37,119 nt of DNA from Candidatus Aenigmatarchaeota archaeon (GTDB lineage: Archaea; Aenigmatarchaeota; Aenigmatarchaeia; Aenigmatarchaeales; Aenigmatarchaeaceae). Position numbers and translations under genes: made by a program. Positions 13,064 through 26,033 of this stretch are shown here, piece by piece; positions within the stretch are counted from its first letter, which is position 1, and each line of letters starts with the position of its first letter. The notes beneath the pieces are model-generated. The model was not told where the DNA came from. It worked only from the letters and a program-made list of their open reading frames with translations, and made no database searches. The stretch is from assembly GCA_039000735.1 (NCBI GenBank), contig JAWBOD010000001.1, forward strand, positions 1-37,119, read 5' to 3'.

Positions 13064-13753
13064 CTACTTTGTAACCAGTTTAGCATCCTTTATTTCAAAA
13101 ACTCCTGAATTGTTTTTCCAGACTTTTTCAGCTTTAGTTATTTCAATTTTTTTAAAAAATAATGGGCAATCCAAAACTAAGCTTTCAAATTCCCCTCCTT
13201 CGCCTAGCACACTTAATCCATATTTTTTATTTAATTGAATTAAATCTTCTATGCATTTTTCATCAATTTTTCTTCCAAGCCAACTTTCATTAAATCCTTC
13301 AGCAGCAACAGCAGTTATTATTGCATCAAAACCGGAACTAACAATTTCTCTTAAAAGCTTTTCTGGCTCTAACCCCCAAAGTGGTGTAATAAGTTTTAAG
13401 TTAAGTTCTTTGCAAACTTTTTCTACTCTTTCTTTTTGATAATTGCTTGAAATTGCTCCGCAAACAACCCCATCTGCATCTAAGTTTTTTAAAAGTATTT
13501 CTAAATCTCTTACTTCGTTTTCTTTTTCACCTAAAGACTCTTTAGAAACTAATTGAATGTTTAAGCAACGGGATTGCATTAATGTTAAACCAATGTTAGG
13601 AGTATGATACATGTAACTGTAAGGATTTTTAGAATGAATTGTAGCTAAATATTTTATTTCATGGCCTTGCTCTATTGCTTTTTTAATTGCAAATAAAGAA
13701 TCTTTACCTCCACTAAATAAAGCTATTAGTTGCATAAGAATTTTTAATTTCAA
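13064..13753 (-). CDS. dph6: Diphthine--ammonia ligase (MJ0570/DUF71 PP-loop ATPase)
   Basis: PP-loop LFSGGKDS, YMYHTPN, EGGEFES. Close collinear resemblance to the MJ0570 family as I recall it. Confidence 0.8.
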   Translation of the reverse strand: MKLKILMQLIALFSGGKDSLFAIKKAIEQGHEIKYLATIHSKNPYSYMYHTPNIGLTLMQSRCLNIQLVSKESLGEKENEVRDLEILLKNLDADGVVCGAISSNYQKERVEKVCKELNLKLITPLWGLEPEKLLREIVSSGFDAIITAVAAEGFNESWLGRKIDEKCIEDLIQLNKKYGLSVLGEGGEFESLVLDCPLFFKKIEITKAEKVWKNNSGVFEIKDAKLVTK

Positions 13754-13819
13754 AGATTTATAAAGATAAATTTATAAACTTAAATAACAACAAATTAAAA
13801 ATTTAAAAAGGGGTGTAAC

Positions 13820-16042
13820 ATGCCAAAGGAAGAGTTCAGCGAAAGTGTTCAGCAATTAATGAATAATCCAAAGAATATCCGTAACATAGGGATAGTATCT
13901 CACATTCACCACGGATCTTATTAGAAAATTTTCTAATAAGAGTGGAAAAAAACGACGCTTACGGATAATCTTGCAGCAGCAGGAGGGTTGATGGCAAGAG
14001 AATTAGTTGGAGAAAGAATGCTTACCTGGATTGATGAACAAGAAAGAGAAAGATTAATGACAATTTATGGTGCAACTGTAACAATGCCGCATGATTTTGA
14101 AGGTCAAAGGTATCTTATTAACTTGCTTGATACACCAGGCCATGTTGATTTTGGTGCTGATGTTACTCAAGCAATGAGGGCTGTTGATGGTGCTGTTGTT
14201 CTTTGTTGTGCTGTAGAGGGTGTAATGCCACAAACTGAAACAGTTTTAAAACAAGCCTTAGCTGAAAGAGTTAAGCCAGTTTTATTTATTAATAAAGTAG
14301 ATAGAGCAATACGTGAATTAAAATTAACACCAGAACAATTACAAAAAAGGTTAGCAAACATAGTTATTGATGTTAACAAGTTTATTCAAAGGCATGTTGA
14401 ACCAGAATTTAGGGACAAATGGATTGTTAAAGTTGAAGATGGTTCTGTTGCTTTTGGCTCTGCTTTAAAAAAATGGGCAATTTCTGTTCCTTACATGCAA
14501 AGAACTGGAGTAAGCTTTAAAAAAATTATTGAGTTATGCTCTCAGGAAAAAGATGAAGAACTAGCAAATCTAGCTCCAATGCATGTTATTGTTTTAGATA
14601 TGGTTATTAAACATTTACCATCACCAATAGAAGCTCAAAAATATAGAATAGCAAAAATTTGGAAAGGTGATATAAATTCTGAAATAGGAAAGCAATTGTT
14701 AAATTGCGATCCTAATGGAAGATTAGCAGCAGTAATAACAAAAGTTACATACGATCCACACGCAGGCATGATATCTACTGCAAGAATATTTTCAGGTAAG
14801 CTTTCTAGAGGTCAAGATATTTACATAGTTAATACTGGCCAAATAATTAAGGTACAACAAGTTACAACATTTATAGCATTAAGAAGAATACCAGTTGAGT
14901 ATGTTTTAGCTGGAAATGTTGTTGGTTTAGTTGGTTTATCAGAGGCTGCTGTTGGACAAACTTTTTGCGATCCTAATTATCCAATAGAAGAATTTGAAGC
15001 AATTAAGCATATTTTTGAGCCGGTTGTTACAAAATCAATAGAACCAAAGTATCCACAAGACTTACCTAAGTTAATAGAAATTTTAAAAACTTTAAGCAGG
15101 GAAGATACCACATTAAAAGTTAAAATAAATGAAGAGACTGGTGAAACTTTAGTTTCTGGTTTAGGCGAATTGCATTTAGATGCAAAAGTTGAAAGAAAAA
15201 TTAAAGAAAAAGGAATAGAAATTGTTGTATCGCCACCAATTGTAGTTTATAGAGAAAGCATTTTTGGCAAGTCTCCTATAATTGAAGGTAAATCTCCTAA
15301 TAAGCATAATAAGTTTTACATATCAGTTGAACCAGTATCTCCTGAAATTTATAAGGCTATGACTGAAGGAATTATAAAGGATGCTGAAATAAAAGGAAAA
15401 AATCTTGAATTAAGAAAAAAATTAATAGACTTAGGAATGGACCCGGAAGATGCGAAAAACGTTATACTTATTTACAATCATTGCATGCTTTTAGATTGTA
15501 CAAAGGGAATACAATACTTAAATGAATCAATAGAAGATGTAAAAGCTGCTTTTATGGACGTTGTTGATGCTGGTCCATTAGCAAAAGAACCTTGTGCAGC
15601 TTTGATTGTAAAATTACACGATGCAGAGTTGCATGAAGATGCGGTTCACAGAGGTCCTGCGCAAATAATGCCTGCAGTAAGATATCCTATTATTCAAGGA
15701 ATGCTAAAAGTTGGTGTTACATTTTTAGAGCCAAAGCAAATTTTAAGAATAGATACACCACAAGAATACATAGGAAATGTTACAGCTGAAGTAAACAATA
15801 GAAGAGGAGAAATTTTAAATGTTGAACAAGAAGAATATTCAGCTATAATAACTGCTAAGATTCCTACTGCTGAGCTTTTTGGTTTTGAAGGTGCTTTAAA
15901 ATCTGCAACTGCTGGTAAAGGTTTTCAATCTTTAATGGACGTTGTTTTTGAAAAAATACCAAACGAATTAAGAGATCAAGTTGCCTTAAAGATTAGAGAA
16001 AGAAAAGGTTTACCAAAAGAACTACCTAAACCAGAAGTCTAA
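13820..16042 (+). CDS. fusA: Translation elongation factor 2 (aEF-2), interrupted by a 33-nt putative BHB intron at 13915..13947
   Basis: The segment from 13820 reads MPKEEFSESVQQLMNNPKNIRNIGIVSHIHHG. After the insert it continues KTTLTDNLAAAGGLMARELVGE..., then DTPGHVDF, NKVDR and HEDAVHRGPAQIMP (diphthamide His). Joining the two parts gives 729 aa, collinear with archaeal EF-2. The Shine-Dalgarno AGGGGTG lies upstream of 13820. The ORF track reports only 13988..16042. Confidence 0.9.
13915..13947 (+). other. Putative bulge-helix-bulge (BHB) mini-intron within EF-2 mRNA
   Basis: CCAC (13909-12) pairs with GUGG (13942-45). The bulges are GGA (13913-15) and AAA (13946-48). The inner helix is the perfect palindrome 13916..13941. 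In-frame stops lie at 13922, 13934 and 13937. Removing these 33 nt restores HHGKTTL. Confidence 0.6.
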
Positions 16043-16089: not shown

Positions 16090-17358
16090 ATGGCTGCAAA
16101 ACCACACTTAAACTTGGTAACAATTGGTCATGTTGATCATGGTAAGTCTACTTTAGTTGGAAGAATACTTTATGACACAGGAGCTATAAAAGAAGAAGAC
16201 TTAAGAAAGTTAAAGGAATTAGCTAAGGAGTTAAAAAAAGAAACATTTGAATTTGCTTTTGTTATGGATAAATTAAAGGAAGAAAGGGAAAGAGGAGTTA
16301 CCATTGATGTAATGCATCAAAGATTTGATACACAAAAATATTATTTTACAATTATTGATGCACCAGGTCACAGGGACTTTGTTAAAAATATGATTACAGG
16401 AGCTTCTCAGGCAGATGCTGCTTTACTTGTTTGTTCTGCTAAAGAAGGAGTTCAAGAGCAAACAAAGGAGCATGTATTTTTAATAAAAGTTTTAGGCGTG
16501 GGACAAATTATAACAGCAATTAACAAAATGGATGCTGTTAACTATGATCAAGCAAAGTTTAATACTGTAAAAGCAGATGTTGAAAAACTTTTAAAGTCAG
16601 TTGGTTACGATACAAGCAAGATATTGTTTATTCCAACTTCAGGATATATGGGAGACAATGTTGTTAAGAAATCTGATAAAATGACTTGGTACAACGGCCC
16701 AACATTAGTTGAAGCTTTTGATACTTTGCATGTCCCACCTCAACCAATAGATAAGCCACTAAGATTGCCTGTTCAAGATGTTTACACAATAACAGGTATA
16801 GGAACAGTTCCTGTAGGAAGGGTTGAAACTGGAATATTGAAAACAGGAGATACTGTAATATTTGAACCAGCAGGAGTAAAAGGAGAAGTTAAATCAATAG
16901 AAATGCACCACGAACAAATACCAGAAGCAAAACCAGGAGACAATGTAGGTTTTTGCGTAAGAGGTGTAAACAAACAAGATATTAAAAGAGGAGATGTTGT
17001 TGGTCATGTTAGCAATCCGCCAAAAGTGGCTAAAGAATTTACAGCACAAATAATTGTTTTACACCATCCAAATGTTATAACAAAAGGTTATACACCAGTT
17101 TTTCACTGCCATACAGCACAAGTTGCTTGTAAAATAACTGAGATCGTTAAGAAAATTGATCCAAAGTCAGGAGCAACTTTGCAAGAACATCCAGATTTTA
17201 TTAAAACTGGAGATGCGGCCATTGTTAAATGCGTTCCTACAAAACCTTTAGTTATTGAAGCTAGCAAAGACTTTCCAGAATTAGCAAGATTTGCAATTAG
17301 AGACATGGGCCAAACTATTGCTGCAGGAGTTTGTTTAGAAGTTGTTCCTGCAAAGTAA
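16090..17358 (+). CDS. tuf: Translation elongation factor 1-alpha (aEF-1alpha)
   Basis: [21 protein letters not shown]. 422 aa. Shine-Dalgarno GGTGAT upstream. Confidence 0.97.
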
Positions 17359-19188: not shown

Positions 19189-20016
19189 ATGGCATTTTTC
19201 AAAAAATTTATTAATTTTTTAATACACTCAAATATTTATTTAGCATTGGGTTCAGCTTTCTTGCCAATTACAGCATTTACGTTTCTTAAATTACCAATTA
19301 AAATAGAACCAATTTTTATAGTATTTACAACTACCATCTTTCTCTATTATTTAAATAGGAGAAGTGACATAGCAGAAGATGCTATTAATTATCCTGAGCG
19401 AATTAGTTTTTTTAAAAAATATGGTAATTATTTTCTTTTTTTAACTTTTATTCTCTATGTTGCAGGACTAAGTTTAGCACTTTCTCATAATTTTAAAACT
19501 TTTTTTATTGCATTAATCCCATTGTTAATAATGATAGCTTATAGTTTGCTGAGGCTAAAAAAATATTTTTTAATAAAAAATATTTTAGCTTCAATAGGTT
19601 GGGCATCTTCATTTATTCTTGCTGGTGCATATTTTAATTTAGAATTTTCATTAAGTGTAATGATAATTTTCTTGTTTTATTTTTTTAGAGCTATGATTAA
19701 TACTATTTTTTGTGATGTAAGAGATATGAGTGGTGATAAGGCTTTAGGCATTAAAACTTTACCTATAAAAATTGGTATAAAATCCACAAAACTATTTCTT
19801 CATTTTTTAAACATTCTTTCTATTTCACTCATCTTGATAGCTTTATTTTTTAAAATAATTAGCGGTGGTTATATTATTTTATTTGTAGCGTTGTACGGAT
19901 TTTTTTGTATTAACTCTATAAATAAATTTAATATAAAAACCCTTAGTGAGCTCATAGATGGAGAACTTTATATGCTTGGTGGTCTAGCATTATTAGAAAG
20001 GGTTTTATTTGTTTAA
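19189..20016 (+). CDS. UbiA-family prenyltransferase (DGGGP-synthase-like)
   Basis: Polytopic membrane protein. First Asp-rich motif is NRRSDIAEDAINYPER (NxxxDxxxD) and the second is DVRDMSGD (DxxDxxxD). Confidence 0.75.
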   Translation: MAFFKKFINFLIHSNIYLALGSAFLPITAFTFLKLPIKIEPIFIVFTTTIFLYYLNRRSDIAEDAINYPERISFFKKYGNYFLFLTFILYVAGLSLALSHNFKTFFIALIPLLIMIAYSLLRLKKYFLIKNILASIGWASSFILAGAYFNLEFSLSVMIIFLFYFFRAMINTIFCDVRDMSGDKALGIKTLPIKIGIKSTKLFLHFLNILSISLILIALFFKIISGGYIILFVALYGFFCINSINKFNIKTLSELIDGELYMLGGLALLERVLFV

Positions 20017-22751: not shown

Positions 22752-23216
22752 ATGTTTGAAAAAACAGCAATGGTAATACTTGCTAATTTATTGCCAACTT
22801 CAGAACAAATAGGTGGAATATCCTTAGGCTTATATTTAGGTTTAGATCCGCTTTACGTTTTGTTAATATCTTTAATTGTTAATTGCTTTTTATTTTTTCC
22901 AGTTTACTTTGGCTTAAAATTATTTTATAATAGTTTATTAAGCAAAATAAAGCTTTTTGAAAAATATATTGAAAGAGTTAGAAGAAAAGGCAAGCCTTAT
23001 GTTGATAAGTATGGATTTTTTGGTTTAACTTTATTTATAGCTTTACCTGCACCGTTAACGGGGACTTATACTGCTTCTATTCTTAGCTGGTTTTTAGATT
23101 TAGATTGGAAAAAATCTTTTTTAGCTATAGCTCTCGGATCTTTTATTGGGGCGTTAGTAATTTTATTTAGCTATTTAGGAGTTGTTAATGTTTTAAAGCT
23201 AATTTTTAGCCTTTAG
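22752..23216 (+). CDS. Small membrane protein, putative small multidrug export family (COG2426-like)
   Basis: Four hydrophobic segments. The N-terminal LPTSEQIGGISLGLYLGLDP and the following LFIALPAPLTGTYTASI resemble that family. Confidence 0.55.
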   Translation: MFEKTAMVILANLLPTSEQIGGISLGLYLGLDPLYVLLISLIVNCFLFFPVYFGLKLFYNSLLSKIKLFEKYIERVRRKGKPYVDKYGFFGLTLFIALPAPLTGTYTASILSWFLDLDWKKSFLAIALGSFIGALVILFSYLGVVNVLKLIFSL

Positions 23217-25421: not shown

Positions 25422-25704
25422 AGACAACGAAAAGCTTCCATTAGTTAATCCTTGGTCTATTTTACTGTATCCCTTGCTTACTGAAAAAGCTATTGAAAAA
25501 ATAGAAAAAGAAAATAAAATTATTTTTGTTGTTAGTAGAAAAGCTAATAAAAAGCAAATAAAATGGGCAACTGAAAAAGTTTTTAATGTTAAGGTTGTTA
25601 AAGTTAATACAATAATAGACAGAAAGGGTAGAAAAAAAGCTTGGATAAAACTTTCAAAAGAATATTCCGCAAGCGACATTGCAACAAAATTAGGAATGTT
25701 GTGA
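25414..25704 (+). CDS. rpl23: 50S ribosomal protein L23
   Basis: LLYPLLTEKAI...IIFVVSRKANKKQIK.A.EKVFNVKV..VNT. The start overlaps the rpl4 stop (ATGGTTGA). Confidence 0.93.
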   Translation: MVEDNEKLPLVNPWSILLYPLLTEKAIEKIEKENKIIFVVSRKANKKQIKWATEKVFNVKVVKVNTIIDRKGRKKAWIKLSKEYSASDIATKLGML

Positions 25705-25709
25705 TAAGT

Positions 25710-26033
25710 ATGAATGAAAAAATAAAAGTAAAGGTAGAAAAAGAATTTCAAAATTTAGAAGATTATGAAAAATTTTTAATGAATAATGGAATATTAGAAA
25801 AAGACAGTTTGGGAAATTTAAAGCTATCACAAGAAACTTATGCTAAAATTTTTGTTGATGCTTACGGGTTATCAATTGTTTTTAATGATTCTAAACCAGA
25901 TGAAATTTTAAGAGTATGTTCTAGGCACATTGATGAAACGTACGGATTTGATATACTTAAAAAAACTACAAGCTATCAAGACCTTGTAAGCAGGATAAAA
26001 GAACTTCAAAACGAAACAAAAAGGGTGGCTTAA
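25710..26033 (+). CDS. Hypothetical 107-aa protein inserted between rpl23 and rpl2
   Basis: ATG is preceded by GTGATaagt, and the rpl23 stop lies inside that Shine-Dalgarno. Its stop overlaps the rpl2 start (TAATG). No family recognised. Confidence 0.6.
   Translation: MNEKIKVKVEKEFQNLEDYEKFLMNNGILEKDSLGNLKLSQETYAKIFVDAYGLSIVFNDSKPDEILRVCSRHIDETYGFDILKKTTSYQDLVSRIKELQNETKRVA

What the first reader, a model, noticed from the sequence alone, without database searches (positions are those of the whole stretch)
13901..13960. 33-nt bulge-helix-bulge mini-intron splitting the P-loop codons of the essential EF-2 gene
Seen directly in the sequence: from ATG 13820 the frame reads ...IRNIGIVSHIHHG. It then runs through SY*KIF**EWK, with stops TAG 13922, TAA 13934 and TAA 13937. 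It resumes as KTTLTDNLAAAGGLMARELVGE... in the same reading frame; 13820 and the track ORF start 13988 are both 2 mod 3. Deleting exactly 13915..13947 (33 nt) gives SHIHHGKTTLTDNL. That is gapless against the archaeal EF-2 P-loop region (AHIDHGKTTLSDNL), and the product is 729 aa. The RNA fold around the insert matches the archaeal splicing-endonuclease substrate. CCAC (13909-12) pairs with GUGG (13942-45) to form a 4-bp central helix. A 3-nt bulge, GGA (13913-15), sits on the 5' strand, and a 3-nt bulge, AAA (13946-48), sits on the 3' strand. The inner helix is a perfect 26-nt palindrome, UCUUAUUAGAAAA/UUUUCUAAUAAGA (13916-13941). Any symmetric cut in the two bulges removes exactly 33 nt. A cut after the 2nd or 3rd bulge nucleotide rebuilds GGA-AAA (Gly-Lys). 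The outer exon-exon helix is weak, with only scattered pairs between 13903-06 and 13951-54, so this would be a relaxed BHB-h' form. Relaxed motifs are known to be cleaved by the broad-specificity endonuclease types found in Crenarchaeota, Nanoarchaeota and ARMAN lineages. BHB introns in protein-coding mRNAs are known essentially only from cbf5 in Crenarchaeota. I am not aware of one described in EF-2 or inside a GTPase P-loop, but that novelty judgement is my inference and not a search result.
Basis: partly seen in the sequence, partly recalled or inferred. Interest (0 to 1): 0.92.

Follow-up and report, generated by a model that had tools for sequence, protein, structure and literature searches.

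The report
Spliced mini-intron inside archaeal EF-2 gene
The essential translation factor EF-2 of this tiny DPANN archaeon is interrupted inside its GTP-binding loop by a 33-base insert shaped like the substrate of the archaeal tRNA-splicing enzyme, and relatives carry up to four such mini-introns in the same gene, so archaeal protein-gene splicing extends well beyond the single textbook case (cbf5).

Summary
EF-2 starts at ATG 13820 and is broken after HHG by 33 nt carrying three stops. Removing 13915-13947 gives a 729-aa EF-2.

The insert folds as CCAC/GUGG (4 bp), with 3-nt bulges GGA and AAA and an 11-13-bp hairpin. This is bulge-helix-bulge (BHB) geometry without an outer helix.

The decisive evidence is comparative:
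- Relatives (Aenigmatarchaeota, by source names of the closest EF-2 proteins) carry 18 sampled mini-introns of 23-33 nt at six sites (plus a 1-nt-shifted variant) in the first 110 codons.
- 13 of the 18 lengths are not multiples of three.
- All 18 have this geometry, and cutting after the second bulge nucleotide restores EF-2 exactly in each.
- The chance rate for the geometry is about 0.16%.
- Helix pairs covary.
- A second assembly, 99.83% identical to the window, carries the same intron with one SNP.
- Exons are under strong purifying selection (dN/dS 0.03-0.06).

I therefore reject pseudogene, assembly artefact, translational hop and mobile-element insertion.

The best explanation is splicing of the pre-mRNA by the EndA endonuclease and RtcB ligase. 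Neither RNA evidence nor these enzyme genes could be examined here.

In the searchable literature only cbf5, plus one Haloferax 5'-UTR intron, is reported. A 95%-identical relative has an intein one codon away.

The parts
13810..13815 (+). Shine-Dalgarno-like GGGGTG, 4 nt upstream of the EF-2 start codon
   Evidence: Read directly. It supports exon 1 being the true start of the gene. This is inference; it was not tested.
13820..13914 (+). EF-2 exon 1: codons 1-31 plus the first two bases (GG) of Gly32
   Evidence: Translation. The spliced full-length query matches full-length Aenigmatarchaeota EF-2 proteins at 82-90% identity with 100% coverage.
13909..13912 (+). 5' strand (CCAC, exonic) of the 4-bp central BHB helix H
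   Evidence: It pairs with 13942-45. In L091 and L092 the exon reads CCAU and still pairs through G-U.
13913..13915 (+). 5' three-nucleotide bulge GGA; predicted cut between 13914 and 13915
   Evidence: Unpaired in the minimum-free-energy fold. The cut rule (after the 2nd bulge nucleotide) is derived from the canonical 37/38 tRNA intron geometry described in PMC4090602.
13915..13947 (+). The 33-nt BHB mini-intron (ATCTTATTAGAAAATTTTCTAATAAGAGTGGAA)
   Evidence: Its removal gives the 729-aa EF-2. Homologous introns of 31 nt occur in L091/L105 and L093/L094/L104, and one of 33 nt in L090.
13916..13941 (+). Inner helix h': perfect 26-nt palindrome forming an 11-13-bp hairpin
   Evidence: On the six-sequence site-B alignment, 6 of its 11 pairs show changes on both sides.
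13942..13945 (+). 3' strand (GUGG, intronic) of the central helix H
13946..13948 (+). 3' three-nucleotide bulge AAA; predicted cut between 13947 and 13948. It is not closed by an outer helix.
   Evidence: Outer helix count is 0.
13948..16042 (+). EF-2 exon 2: third base of Gly32, then Lys33 to the stop codon
   Evidence: dN/dS is 0.06 against L009 and 0.03 against L091.

Best explanation
The 33 nt at 13915-13947 are an archaeal bulge-helix-bulge (BHB) intron inside the coding sequence of the single-copy-type EF-2 gene of an Aenigmatarchaeota (DPANN) archaeon.

Proposed mechanism:
1. In the primary transcript, the exonic CCAC (the last base of His30 plus the His31 codon) pairs with the intronic GUGG.
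2. This pairing presents two 3-nt bulges, GGA and AAA, on opposite strands, 4 bp apart. The intron hairpin serves as the inner helix.
3. The tRNA-splicing endonuclease EndA cuts after the second nucleotide of each bulge.
4. The RtcB ligase joins ...CAC CAC GG to A AAA ACG..., recreating Gly-Lys of the P-loop (GHHGKT).
5. The mRNA then encodes a normal 729-aa EF-2. Unspliced RNA can only give a 34-aa peptide.

What is shown: the geometry, the exact frame restoration, conservation and covariation across relatives, purifying selection on the exons, and the presence of the intron in an independent assembly.

What is inferred: the identity of the enzymes, the cut positions, and the claim that splicing happens at all.

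The intron belongs to a family of 23-33-nt BHB mini-introns. The family occupies six sites (plus a 1-nt-shifted variant) in the conserved GTPase motifs of EF-2 in this lineage, with up to four introns per gene.
For: 1. Structure. The MFE fold equals the BHB model, with z = -3.1.

2. Frame restoration. The spliced product is a 729-aa EF-2 that matches full-length relatives over 100% of its length at 82-90% identity.

3. Comparative catalogue. There are 18 sampled introns:
- Site A, SH|IH: L002, L095-97, L005-7.
- Site B, in the Gly codon: window, L090, L091/L105, L093/94/L104, L092, L122. L003/4 is shifted by 1 nt, with H = CAUG/CAUG.
- Site C, in the Lys codon: L002, L095.
- Site D, IDE|QE: L093, L015.
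- Site E, HVD|FG: L091, L092, L093.
- Site F, in the Arg codon of AMR|AV: L091, L093.
All 18 have H >= 3/4 pairs (16 have 4/4), 3-nt bulges and h' >= 5 bp. The rates at random positions are 0.16% and 0.035%. 13 of 18 lengths are not multiples of 3. Removing the introns by the canonical cut rule gives stop-free EF-2 in L091 (3 introns), L093 (4 introns), L002 (2 introns separated by a 15-nt micro-exon) and L015.

4. Covariation at site B. 83% of cells are paired, against 40-54% when partners are slid. 7 pairs change on both sides; 0-2 of 500 shuffles reach the observed values. At site D the exon change GAU->GAC is matched by A->G in the intron strand.

5. Purifying selection. dN/dS is 0.06 against the closest allele and 0.03 against L091, where dS = 1.7, so the intron has persisted through saturating synonymous divergence.

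6. Independent assembly. L090 has the same intron plus 1 SNP.

7. Known biology.
- BHB consists of a 4-bp helix with two 3-nt bulges (PMC4090602).
- Relaxed forms are cut by the (alpha-beta)2 and epsilon2 enzyme types, and L3-loop-bearing alpha4 EndAs in several DPANN lineages are associated with more disrupted tRNA genes (PMC5829648).
- EndA homologues are abundant in DPANN metagenome proteins.
Against: - No RNA evidence of a spliced junction or of an excised or circular intron was available.
- No endA or rtcB gene lies in the 37-kb window or in any fetched locus. The EndA type of this lineage is unknown. The top EndA hits were Nanoarchaeota and Woesearchaeota, not Aenigmatarchaeota.
- The window intron has no outer helix, so a strict-specificity EndA would not be expected to cut the 3' site.
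- Two of the 18 introns (L015 site D, L091 site E) have only 3 of 4 central pairs.
- No intron-containing tRNA gene was seen in the fetched loci.
- Whether the rest of the genome holds a second, intact EF-2 cannot be checked.
Confidence: 0.87

Rival explanations
1. Pseudogene or inactivating insertion: a small palindromic (MITE-like) element landed in EF-2 and killed this copy, and a functional EF-2 lies elsewhere in the genome.
For: The insert is a perfect palindrome and carries three stops. The rest of the genome cannot be inspected.
Against: - There is no other lesion in 729 codons. dN/dS is 0.03-0.06, even across dS = 1.7, between intron-bearing alleles.
- There is no second copy of the palindrome in the window.
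- The 4 nt following the palindrome are complementary to the exon. The same holds at five other sites with unrelated intron sequences.
- The gene sits in the usual EF-2/EF-1alpha/S10 context.
Confidence: 0.04
2. Programmed translational bypass (ribosome hopping as in phage T4 gene 60): the ribosome takes off at GGA 13913-15 and lands downstream, skipping the hairpin.
For: There is a GGA take-off codon, a hairpin, a nearby stop, and a second GGA at 13944-46.
Against: - Landing on GGA 13944-46 puts the ribosome in the wrong frame (GKKRR... instead of GKTTLTDNL; read).
- The GGA take-off/landing pairing seen at site B has no evident counterpart at the other five sites; I spot-checked only L002 site A, where the nearest matching codon would skip a residue (reading and 51 sequences).
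- Bypass does not predict a 4-bp exon-intron helix with 3-nt bulges at fixed distance.
Confidence: 0.02
3. Sequencing or assembly artefact (chimeric join or collapsed palindrome).
For: Palindromes can arise from library or assembly errors.
Against: - An independent assembly from SRR27730047 has the same insert with one SNP and 14 differences over 8 kb.
- Homologous introns occur in ENA, JGI and Logan contigs from other samples.
Confidence: 0.01
4. The inserts are removed from the RNA, but by an enzyme other than EndA/RtcB, for example another structure-specific RNase plus a different ligase.
For: The enzymes were not observed here. The outer helix is absent in most of these introns, which is atypical for strict EndA substrates.
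Against: The geometry (4-bp helix, 3-nt bulges, symmetric cuts after the second bulge nucleotide) is the defining EndA substrate. No other archaeal activity with this specificity is known to me (PMC4090602; PMC7714728).
Confidence: 0.05

Closest known systems
cbf5 pre-mRNA intron of Crenarchaeota (Watanabe 2002; Yoshinari 2006; Yokobori 2009, PMC2738675)
   Same: A BHB intron inside a protein-coding ORF. It has a patchy presence and absence among relatives (gain and loss). It is inferred to be handled by the tRNA-splicing endonuclease.
   Different: - The host gene is EF-2 rather than cbf5, and the phylum is DPANN/Aenigmatarchaeota rather than Crenarchaeota.
- This intron lies inside the P-loop.
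- The family here occupies six sites plus a shifted variant, with up to four introns per gene and a 15-nt micro-exon.
- cbf5 splicing is experimentally confirmed; this one is not.
BHB introns of archaeal tRNA and rRNA genes, including relaxed HBh'/hBH forms (Marck & Grosjean 2003; PMC4090602; PMC5829648)
   Same: The same motif: a 4-bp helix, two 3-nt bulges and an inner hairpin. The relaxed form lacks the outer helix. Multiple small introns per gene occur, as in Thermoproteales tRNAs.
   Different: The substrate is an mRNA, so the exonic half of the helix is constrained by codons and the splice must restore a reading frame.
HVO_1309 5'-UTR BHB intron of Haloferax volcanii (PMC7714728)
   Same: An mRNA cleaved by EndA at a BHB, shown both in vivo and in vitro.
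   Different: It lies in the untranslated leader, not in the coding sequence, so there is no frame restoration.
HAC1/XBP1 unconventional mRNA splicing in eukaryotes (from my own knowledge; RtcB splicing of HAC1 mRNA appears as a reference title)
   Same: Non-spliceosomal removal of a short intron from a coding sequence by a protein endonuclease plus RtcB-type ligation, changing the reading frame.
   Different: The endonuclease is Ire1 acting on twin stem-loops and is stress-regulated. It is not EndA acting on a BHB.
P-loop inteins of archaeal NTPases
   Same: A selfish insertion at the most conserved nucleotide-binding motif. A 94.7%-identical (DNA) allele (P0001/L009) carries an intein at GK|T, 3-4 nt from this intron.
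   Different: Inteins are translated and removed at the protein level. This insert has stops and is far too short.
Translational bypass in phage T4 gene 60
   Same: A GGA codon followed by a hairpin and a stop within a coding sequence.
   Different: There is no in-frame matching landing codon, and the structure is a BHB (see rivals).

Membership tests
Archaeal bulge-helix-bulge (BHB) intron | Central 4-bp helix flanked by two 3-nt bulges on opposite strands | tested here: met
   CCAC 13909-12 pairs with GUGG 13942-45; the bulges are GGA 13913-15 and AAA 13946-48.
Archaeal bulge-helix-bulge (BHB) intron | Inner helix h' adjacent to the 5' bulge | tested here: met
   An 11-13-bp hairpin at 13916-41. 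It covaries in relatives.
Archaeal bulge-helix-bulge (BHB) intron | Outer helix h closing the 3' bulge (strict hBHBh' form) | tested here: not met
   There are 0 contiguous outer pairs in the window, and 0-3 in the 18 catalogued introns. It is therefore the relaxed HBh' form, not the strict motif.
Archaeal bulge-helix-bulge (BHB) intron | Symmetric cuts after the second nucleotide of each bulge yield a functional product | tested here: met
   In silico only. The result is a 729-aa EF-2 with an intact GHHGKT P-loop. The same rule restores EF-2 in all 18 introns.
Archaeal bulge-helix-bulge (BHB) intron | Structure rather than sequence conserved among homologues | tested here: met
   The site-B introns of L092, L003 and L122 have unrelated hairpin sequences but the same geometry.
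Archaeal bulge-helix-bulge (BHB) intron | Cleaved by EndA and exons joined by RtcB (spliced RNA exists) | not testable with these tools
   No transcript data and no enzymology were available.
Archaeal bulge-helix-bulge (BHB) intron | EndA and RtcB encoded by the same genome | tested here: inconclusive
   None is present in the window or in any fetched locus. EndA homologues are widespread in DPANN proteins, but no Aenigmatarchaeota-labelled hit appeared in the top 120.
Programmed translational bypass (T4 gene 60 type) | Matching take-off and landing codons that keep the downstream reading frame | tested here: not met
   GGA 13944-46 is out of frame with KTTLTDNL. The other five sites were not systematically checked for matched codons; one spot check at L002 site A found none that keeps the protein sequence.
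Intein | In-frame open reading frame with splicing blocks (C/S...HN + C/S/T) | tested here: not met
   The insert is 33 nt with three stops. By contrast, the relative P0001 does end an intein with ...IIHN|T.
Self-splicing group I / II intron | Ribozyme core detectable by covariance model; length of hundreds of nucleotides | tested here: not met
   The Rfam scan of the window found only one tRNA. The insert is 33 nt.
MITE / insertion sequence | Repeated copies in the genome and a target-site duplication | tested here: not met
   It is a single copy in the 37 kb, even allowing 3 mismatches, and I saw no flanking direct repeat in the sequence (read by eye, not formally scanned). The rest of the genome was not available.

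The most novel reading that the evidence does not exclude
The EF-2 mini-introns may be relics or partners of homing elements that compete for the most conserved GTPase motifs.

Observations that suggest this:
- The introns sit at or close to conserved GTPase motif regions: the P-loop (G1), the DTPGH (G3) motif, and by my reading the switch regions. Inteins and homing endonucleases target such sites.
- A near-conspecific allele has an intein one codon from the window's intron.
- In the two lineages sampled with introns at sites A and C (L002, L095-97), a free-standing LAGLIDADG endonuclease-like gene abuts the EF-2 start.

Under this reading a BHB intron spreads with, or protects its allele from, a DNA endonuclease that recognises the uninterrupted P-loop coding sequence. 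This would be analogous to 'collaborative homing' of phage introns with free-standing endonucleases. It would make BHB introns in protein genes mobile, selfish elements rather than accidents.
Probability: 0.2. Interest if true: 0.9.

Novelty: new member of a known kind. Interest (0 to 1): 0.82.

Why it matters
Archaeal protein genes are treated as intron-free. The only established exception is one intron in cbf5 of some Crenarchaeota, plus one 5'-UTR intron in Haloferax.

Here an indispensable translation factor of a DPANN archaeon cannot be made without RNA splicing. In relatives the same gene is a mosaic of up to five exons, one of them only 15 nt long.

Consequences:
- The known reach of EndA/RtcB splicing extends to mRNAs of a second major archaeal group.
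- Gene callers systematically mis-annotate such genes. Here the calls are a 683-aa P-loop-less 'EF-2' and orphan 30-34-aa ORFs.
- It raises the question of how splicing is reconciled with coupled transcription and translation.
- It offers a natural system to study intron gain and loss, and the interplay of introns, inteins and homing endonucleases at conserved motifs.
- It predicts a broad-specificity EndA in Aenigmatarchaeota.

Tried and rejected
1. A permissive BHB scan of the whole window gave about 2000 hits in this 30%-GC DNA. A test of whether removing a candidate merges two ORFs gave 47 hits. Only the EF-2 site combined a long h' with a meaningful junction. Pfam showed that most other large ORFs, including 10 of the ribosomal-protein-cluster ORFs, are intact. 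No second intron was found in the window.

2. A search for intron-containing tRNAs in the window and 19 related loci found none.

3. The Rfam scan found only the tRNA.

4. Looking for EndA:
- tblastn of M. jannaschii EndA against all held DNA gave no hits.
- A protein search with N. equitans EndA returned Nanoarchaeota and Woesearchaeota only.

5. N-truncated EF-2 hits P0037 and P0067 turned out to be contig-end truncations, not introns.

6. Long tblastn 'matches' in L011, L013 and L019-L026 were the neighbouring EF-1alpha gene, not inserts.

7. The metagenome pattern scan for site-B introns returned 51 stretches, of which only 3 (L104, L105, L122) are EF-2. The rest are chance matches.

8. 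For L015 site D, the register suggested by the MFE fold (UGAC/GUCA) would not restore the frame. Only the GACG/AGUC register (3 of 4 pairs) does, so that intron is a less canonical member.

Padding it with X residues worked and retrieved orphan exon-1 ORFs.

10. My first dN/dS run used wrong start coordinates for L003 and L005. Those two rows are void.
Full report
**1. The observation**

The sequence is as described. From ATG 13820, preceded by GGGGTG at 13810-15, the frame reads MPKEEFSESVQQLMNNPKNIRNIGIVSHIHHG. It then runs through SY*KIF**EWK, with stops TAG 13922, TAA 13934 and TAA 13937. It resumes as KTTLTDNLAAAGG... in the same frame.

- ORF listing shows a 34-aa ORF (13820-13924) and a 684-aa ORF (13988-16042).
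- Deleting 13915-13947, or equivalently 13916-13948, yields a 729-aa protein.
- No other 33-nt deletion gives the same product (reading).
- The window has 29.7% G+C.

The fold of 13895-13965 has as its minimum-free-energy and centroid structure exactly the proposed motif:
- CCAC (13909-12) paired with GUGG (13942-45).
- A 3-nt bulge GGA.
- An 11-bp hairpin from the 26-nt palindrome.
- An unpaired AAA and a 3' tail.

The energy is -15.3 kcal/mol against -7.7 +/- 2.4 for shuffles (z = -3.1). The palindrome is unique in the window. The strand order (exon H strand, bulge, hairpin, intron H strand, bulge, exon) is the arrangement found in pre-tRNAs. There, anticodon-loop nucleotides pair with the intron, and the splice sites lie in the two adjacent bulges (PMC4090602). 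With the canonical intron at 37/38, each cut falls after the second bulge nucleotide. Here that means GG|A and AA|A, joining ...CAC CAC GG to A AAA ACG and giving His-His-Gly-Lys-Thr.

**2. The organism and the gene**

The spliced protein matches full-length EF-2 of Candidatus Aenigmatarchaeota MAGs at 82-90% identity over 100% of its length. Nearly all of these relatives are 727-731 aa and uninterrupted.

The neighbourhood is the usual one. EF-1alpha (16090-17358) lies downstream; after five further ORFs, S10, a tRNA-Ser and three more ORFs comes the ribosomal-protein cluster starting with L3-L4-L23-L2. A diphthamide synthase gene lies divergently upstream.

**3. Is it an artefact?**

The 683-aa downstream ORF is present with an identical sequence on a Logan contig from run SRR27730047 (L090).
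- That contig is 99.83% identical to the window over 8052 nt, with 14 mismatches.
- It carries the same 33-nt insert with one A->T change at the apex of the hairpin. This is the only difference in the 211 nt around the site.

So the insert exists in an independently assembled, slightly different population.

**4. Comparative evidence**

This is the core of the argument.

*How the relatives were found.* Several EF-2 hits were N-terminally truncated. A search with the exon-1 peptide retrieved orphan 30-34-aa ORFs. I fetched their contigs. I also fetched the species-representative genomes and ran one metagenome pattern scan. All EF-2 loci were then scanned with a script with two requirements. First, the candidate must show canonical BHB geometry. 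Second, after cutting behind the second nucleotide of each bulge, the peptide across the junction must match EF-2.

*Result.* There are 18 sampled introns, of 23-33 nt.

| Site | Position | Loci (length in nt) | Central helix H |
|---|---|---|---|
| A | after Ser-His (SH\|IH) | L002 (31), L095-97 (31), L005-7 (29) | UCGC/GCGA |
| B | within the Gly codon, GG^A | window and L090 (33), L091/L105 (31), L093/L094/L104 (31), L092 (32), L122 (33) | CCAC or CCAU / GUGG |
| B' | 1 nt downstream of B | L003/L004 (32) | CAUG/CAUG |
| C | within the Lys codon, AA^A | L002 (30), L095 (28) | CGGU/GCCG |
| D | IDE\|QE | L093 (23), L015 (32) | GAUG/CAUC; GACG/AGUC |
| E | DTPGHVD\|FG | L091 (23), L092 (29), L093 (27) | GUCG/CGAA; GUUG/CAAC; GUUG/CAAU |
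| F | within Arg of AMR\|AV | L091 (33), L093 (32) | UAUG/CAUA |

*Features of the set.*
- Every interruption found in these genes is explained by such an intron.
- 13 of 18 lengths are not divisible by three, so no read-through or in-frame insertion model can apply.
- After in-silico splicing the reading frames carry no stop: L091 (3 introns, 506 codons), L093 (4 introns, 354 codons), L002 (2 introns separated by a 15-nt exon ATACATCACGGTAAA, 729 codons) and L015.
- All 18 have at least 3 of 4 central pairs (16 have 4 of 4) and an inner helix of 5-11 bp directly adjacent.
- Random positions and lengths in the same genes meet these criteria in 0.16% of trials, and the stricter 4/4 criterion in 0.035%.

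*Structure is conserved, not sequence.*
- The site-B introns of the window, L090, L091 and L093 are clearly homologous. They differ by loop indels and by transitions that keep pairing.
- Those of L092, L003 and L122 have unrelated hairpins but the same geometry.
- On the six-sequence site-B alignment, 83% of cells are paired, against 40-54% when partners are slid by 1-3 columns. Seven pairs change on both sides. Only 0-2 of 500 shuffles reach the observed pairing, double-change and covariation values.
- In the central helix the exonic strand is fixed by codons and the intronic strand follows it. CAC->CAU in the exon gives a G-U pair (L091, L092). GAU->GAC at site D is matched by A->G in the intron.

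**5. The gene is functional**

- dN/dS between the window and its closest allele (L009; 96% amino-acid identity, 94.7% DNA identity) is 0.06.
- Between the window and L091, which shares the site-B intron, it is 0.03 at dS = 1.7.

The intron has therefore persisted while synonymous sites approached saturation and the protein stayed under strong constraint. This excludes a pseudogene.

**6. Mechanism**

The best-supported reading has four steps:
1. The primary transcript forms the BHB.
2. The tRNA-splicing endonuclease EndA cuts both bulges.
3. RtcB joins the exons.
4. The mRNA then encodes EF-2.

Steps 2 and 3 are inferred from what is known of BHB processing (PMC4090602; PMC7714728).

The window's intron has no outer helix, and the family has 0-3 outer pairs. 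It is therefore the relaxed HBh' type.
- According to PMC5829648, relaxed motifs need broad-specificity enzymes, the (alpha-beta)2 and epsilon2 types.
- The same paper reports alpha4 enzymes carrying an 'L3' loop in several DPANN lineages and associates them with more disrupted tRNA genes.
- The EndA of this lineage could not be examined. None is in the window or the fetched loci. A search seeded with N. equitans EndA returned Nanoarchaeota and Woesearchaeota proteins only.
- Unspliced RNA would yield only a 34-aa peptide.
- A protein starting at the internal ATG 13991, as gene callers chose, would lack the P-loop.

**7. Rivals**

- *Translational hopping.* It fails because the only matching landing codon (GGA 13944-46) is out of frame. 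The other sites were not systematically checked for matched codons.
- *MITE-like insertion.* It fails on copy number, on selection and on the exon-complementary tetranucleotide found at every site.
- *Intein or self-splicing intron.* Both fail on size, stops and the Rfam scan.
- *Assembly artefact.* It fails as set out in section 3.
- *A non-EndA nuclease.* This cannot be excluded, but nothing supports it.

**8. Comparison with what is known**

Full-text searches for BHB introns combined with protein-coding genes, mRNA, DPANN, Aenigmarchaeota or elongation factor 2 found only the cbf5 work and the Haloferax HVO_1309 5'-UTR intron.
- A 2020 paper states that cbf5 was the only earlier example.
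- 2018 and 2025 endonuclease papers cite only the cbf5 papers for pre-mRNA.
- The 2009 cbf5 paper notes that other cases had been predicted but not confirmed.
- No paper linked BHB introns to EF-2.

The library covers open-access papers and bioRxiv only, so an earlier mention elsewhere cannot be ruled out.

I class the finding as a new member of a known kind. Four features are unusual: the host gene, the lineage, the multiplicity of introns, and their location in GTPase signature motifs.

**9. Context that may matter**

- The closest allele (P0001/L009, GCA_038998635.1) begins inside an intein that ends ...NGLIIHN|TTLTDNL. That is an intein at GK|T of the same P-loop, 3-4 nt from the window's intron and 1 nt from site C.
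- Both lineages sampled with introns at sites A and C (L002 and L095-97) have a 350-410-aa ORF immediately upstream of, and overlapping, the EF-2 start codon. The ORF has a LAGLIDADG_3 domain and a C-terminal winged helix. Its best solved-structure matches are two 'V-ATPase'/'V-type ATP synthase alpha chain' PDB entries (7qss/7qsu), which from their size and the LAGLIDADG match I take to be V-ATPase intein structures.
- The intron sites lie at or close to conserved GTPase motif regions: P-loop; near switch I; DTPGH; after switch II (switch-region placement is my reading, not tested).

Together these points suggest, but do not show, a link between the mini-introns and homing-endonuclease activity at these sites.

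**10. Verdict**

- Confidence in the BHB-splicing explanation is 0.87.

Noticed in passing
L009 1-84 (GCA_038998635.1, JAVZGI010000030.1), aligned to the window from 13961 onward: The closest EF-2 allele (96% amino-acid, 94.7% DNA identity) starts inside an intein that ends ...NGLIIHN|TTLTDNL. That is an intein at GK|T of the same P-loop, 3-4 nt from the window's intron. The contig is cut, so it is unknown whether that allele also carries the intron.
   Followed up: partly
L002 1628-2857 and L095 2-1060: A free-standing ORF with a LAGLIDADG_3 domain (30 bits, above the Pfam cut-off) and a C-terminal winged helix. Its best PDB matches are two V-ATPase / V-type ATP synthase alpha chain entries (7qss/7qsu), which I take to be intein structures. 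It lies immediately upstream of, and overlaps, the start of both EF-2 lineages sampled with introns at sites A and C. It may be a homing endonuclease that targets the uninterrupted P-loop sequence.
   Followed up: partly
L002 2965-2979: A 15-nt micro-exon (ATACATCACGGTAAA, encoding IHHGK) lies between two BHB introns of 31 and 30 nt. The two BHB motifs are only one helical turn apart, and each uses part of the micro-exon as its central-helix strand or bulge.
   Followed up: yes
L015 2671-2678 with 2727-2734: The site-D intron of L015 is flanked by a perfect 8-bp exon-exon helix (GCUCACGU/ACGUGAGC) made of codons for LTW and ERE, while its central helix has only 3 of 4 pairs. The window's orthologous codons are not complementary.
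   Followed up: partly
window 13064-13753 (-): A diphthamide synthase (Dph6-type, PF01902, E = 7e-76) is encoded divergently, 66 nt upstream of EF-2, the protein whose histidine it helps modify.
   Followed up: no
window 25641-26033 (+): A 130-aa ORF with no Pfam match fills a gap of about 330 nt between the L23 and L2 genes of the otherwise canonical ribosomal-protein operon.
   Followed up: no
L122 (Ga0213870_1000058, 56-kb contig), minus strand about 365-411: A much more divergent EF-2 (…IRNIATASHVHHG|KTTLTDNLLSGAG…) carries a 33-nt intron at exactly site B. It has the same CCAC/GUGG helix but an unrelated hairpin (CUGUAG…CUGCAG). The site is therefore either old or has been colonised repeatedly.
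   Followed up: partly
window 13991-16042 and 13820-13924: Public gene calls split this gene into a 683-aa P-loop-less 'EF-2' and, in relatives, orphan 30-34-aa 'hypothetical proteins'. Searching for such orphan exon-1 peptides was an efficient way to find intron-bearing alleles.
   Followed up: yes
window 19553-19593 and 23141-23201: Two long AT-rich hairpins turned up in the BHB scan. One is a 27-nt palindrome inside the UbiA-family ORF. The other is a 17-bp stem at the 3' end of ORF 22752-23216. Neither interrupts a reading frame. They are probably a coding-region palindrome and a terminator-like hairpin.
   Followed up: no
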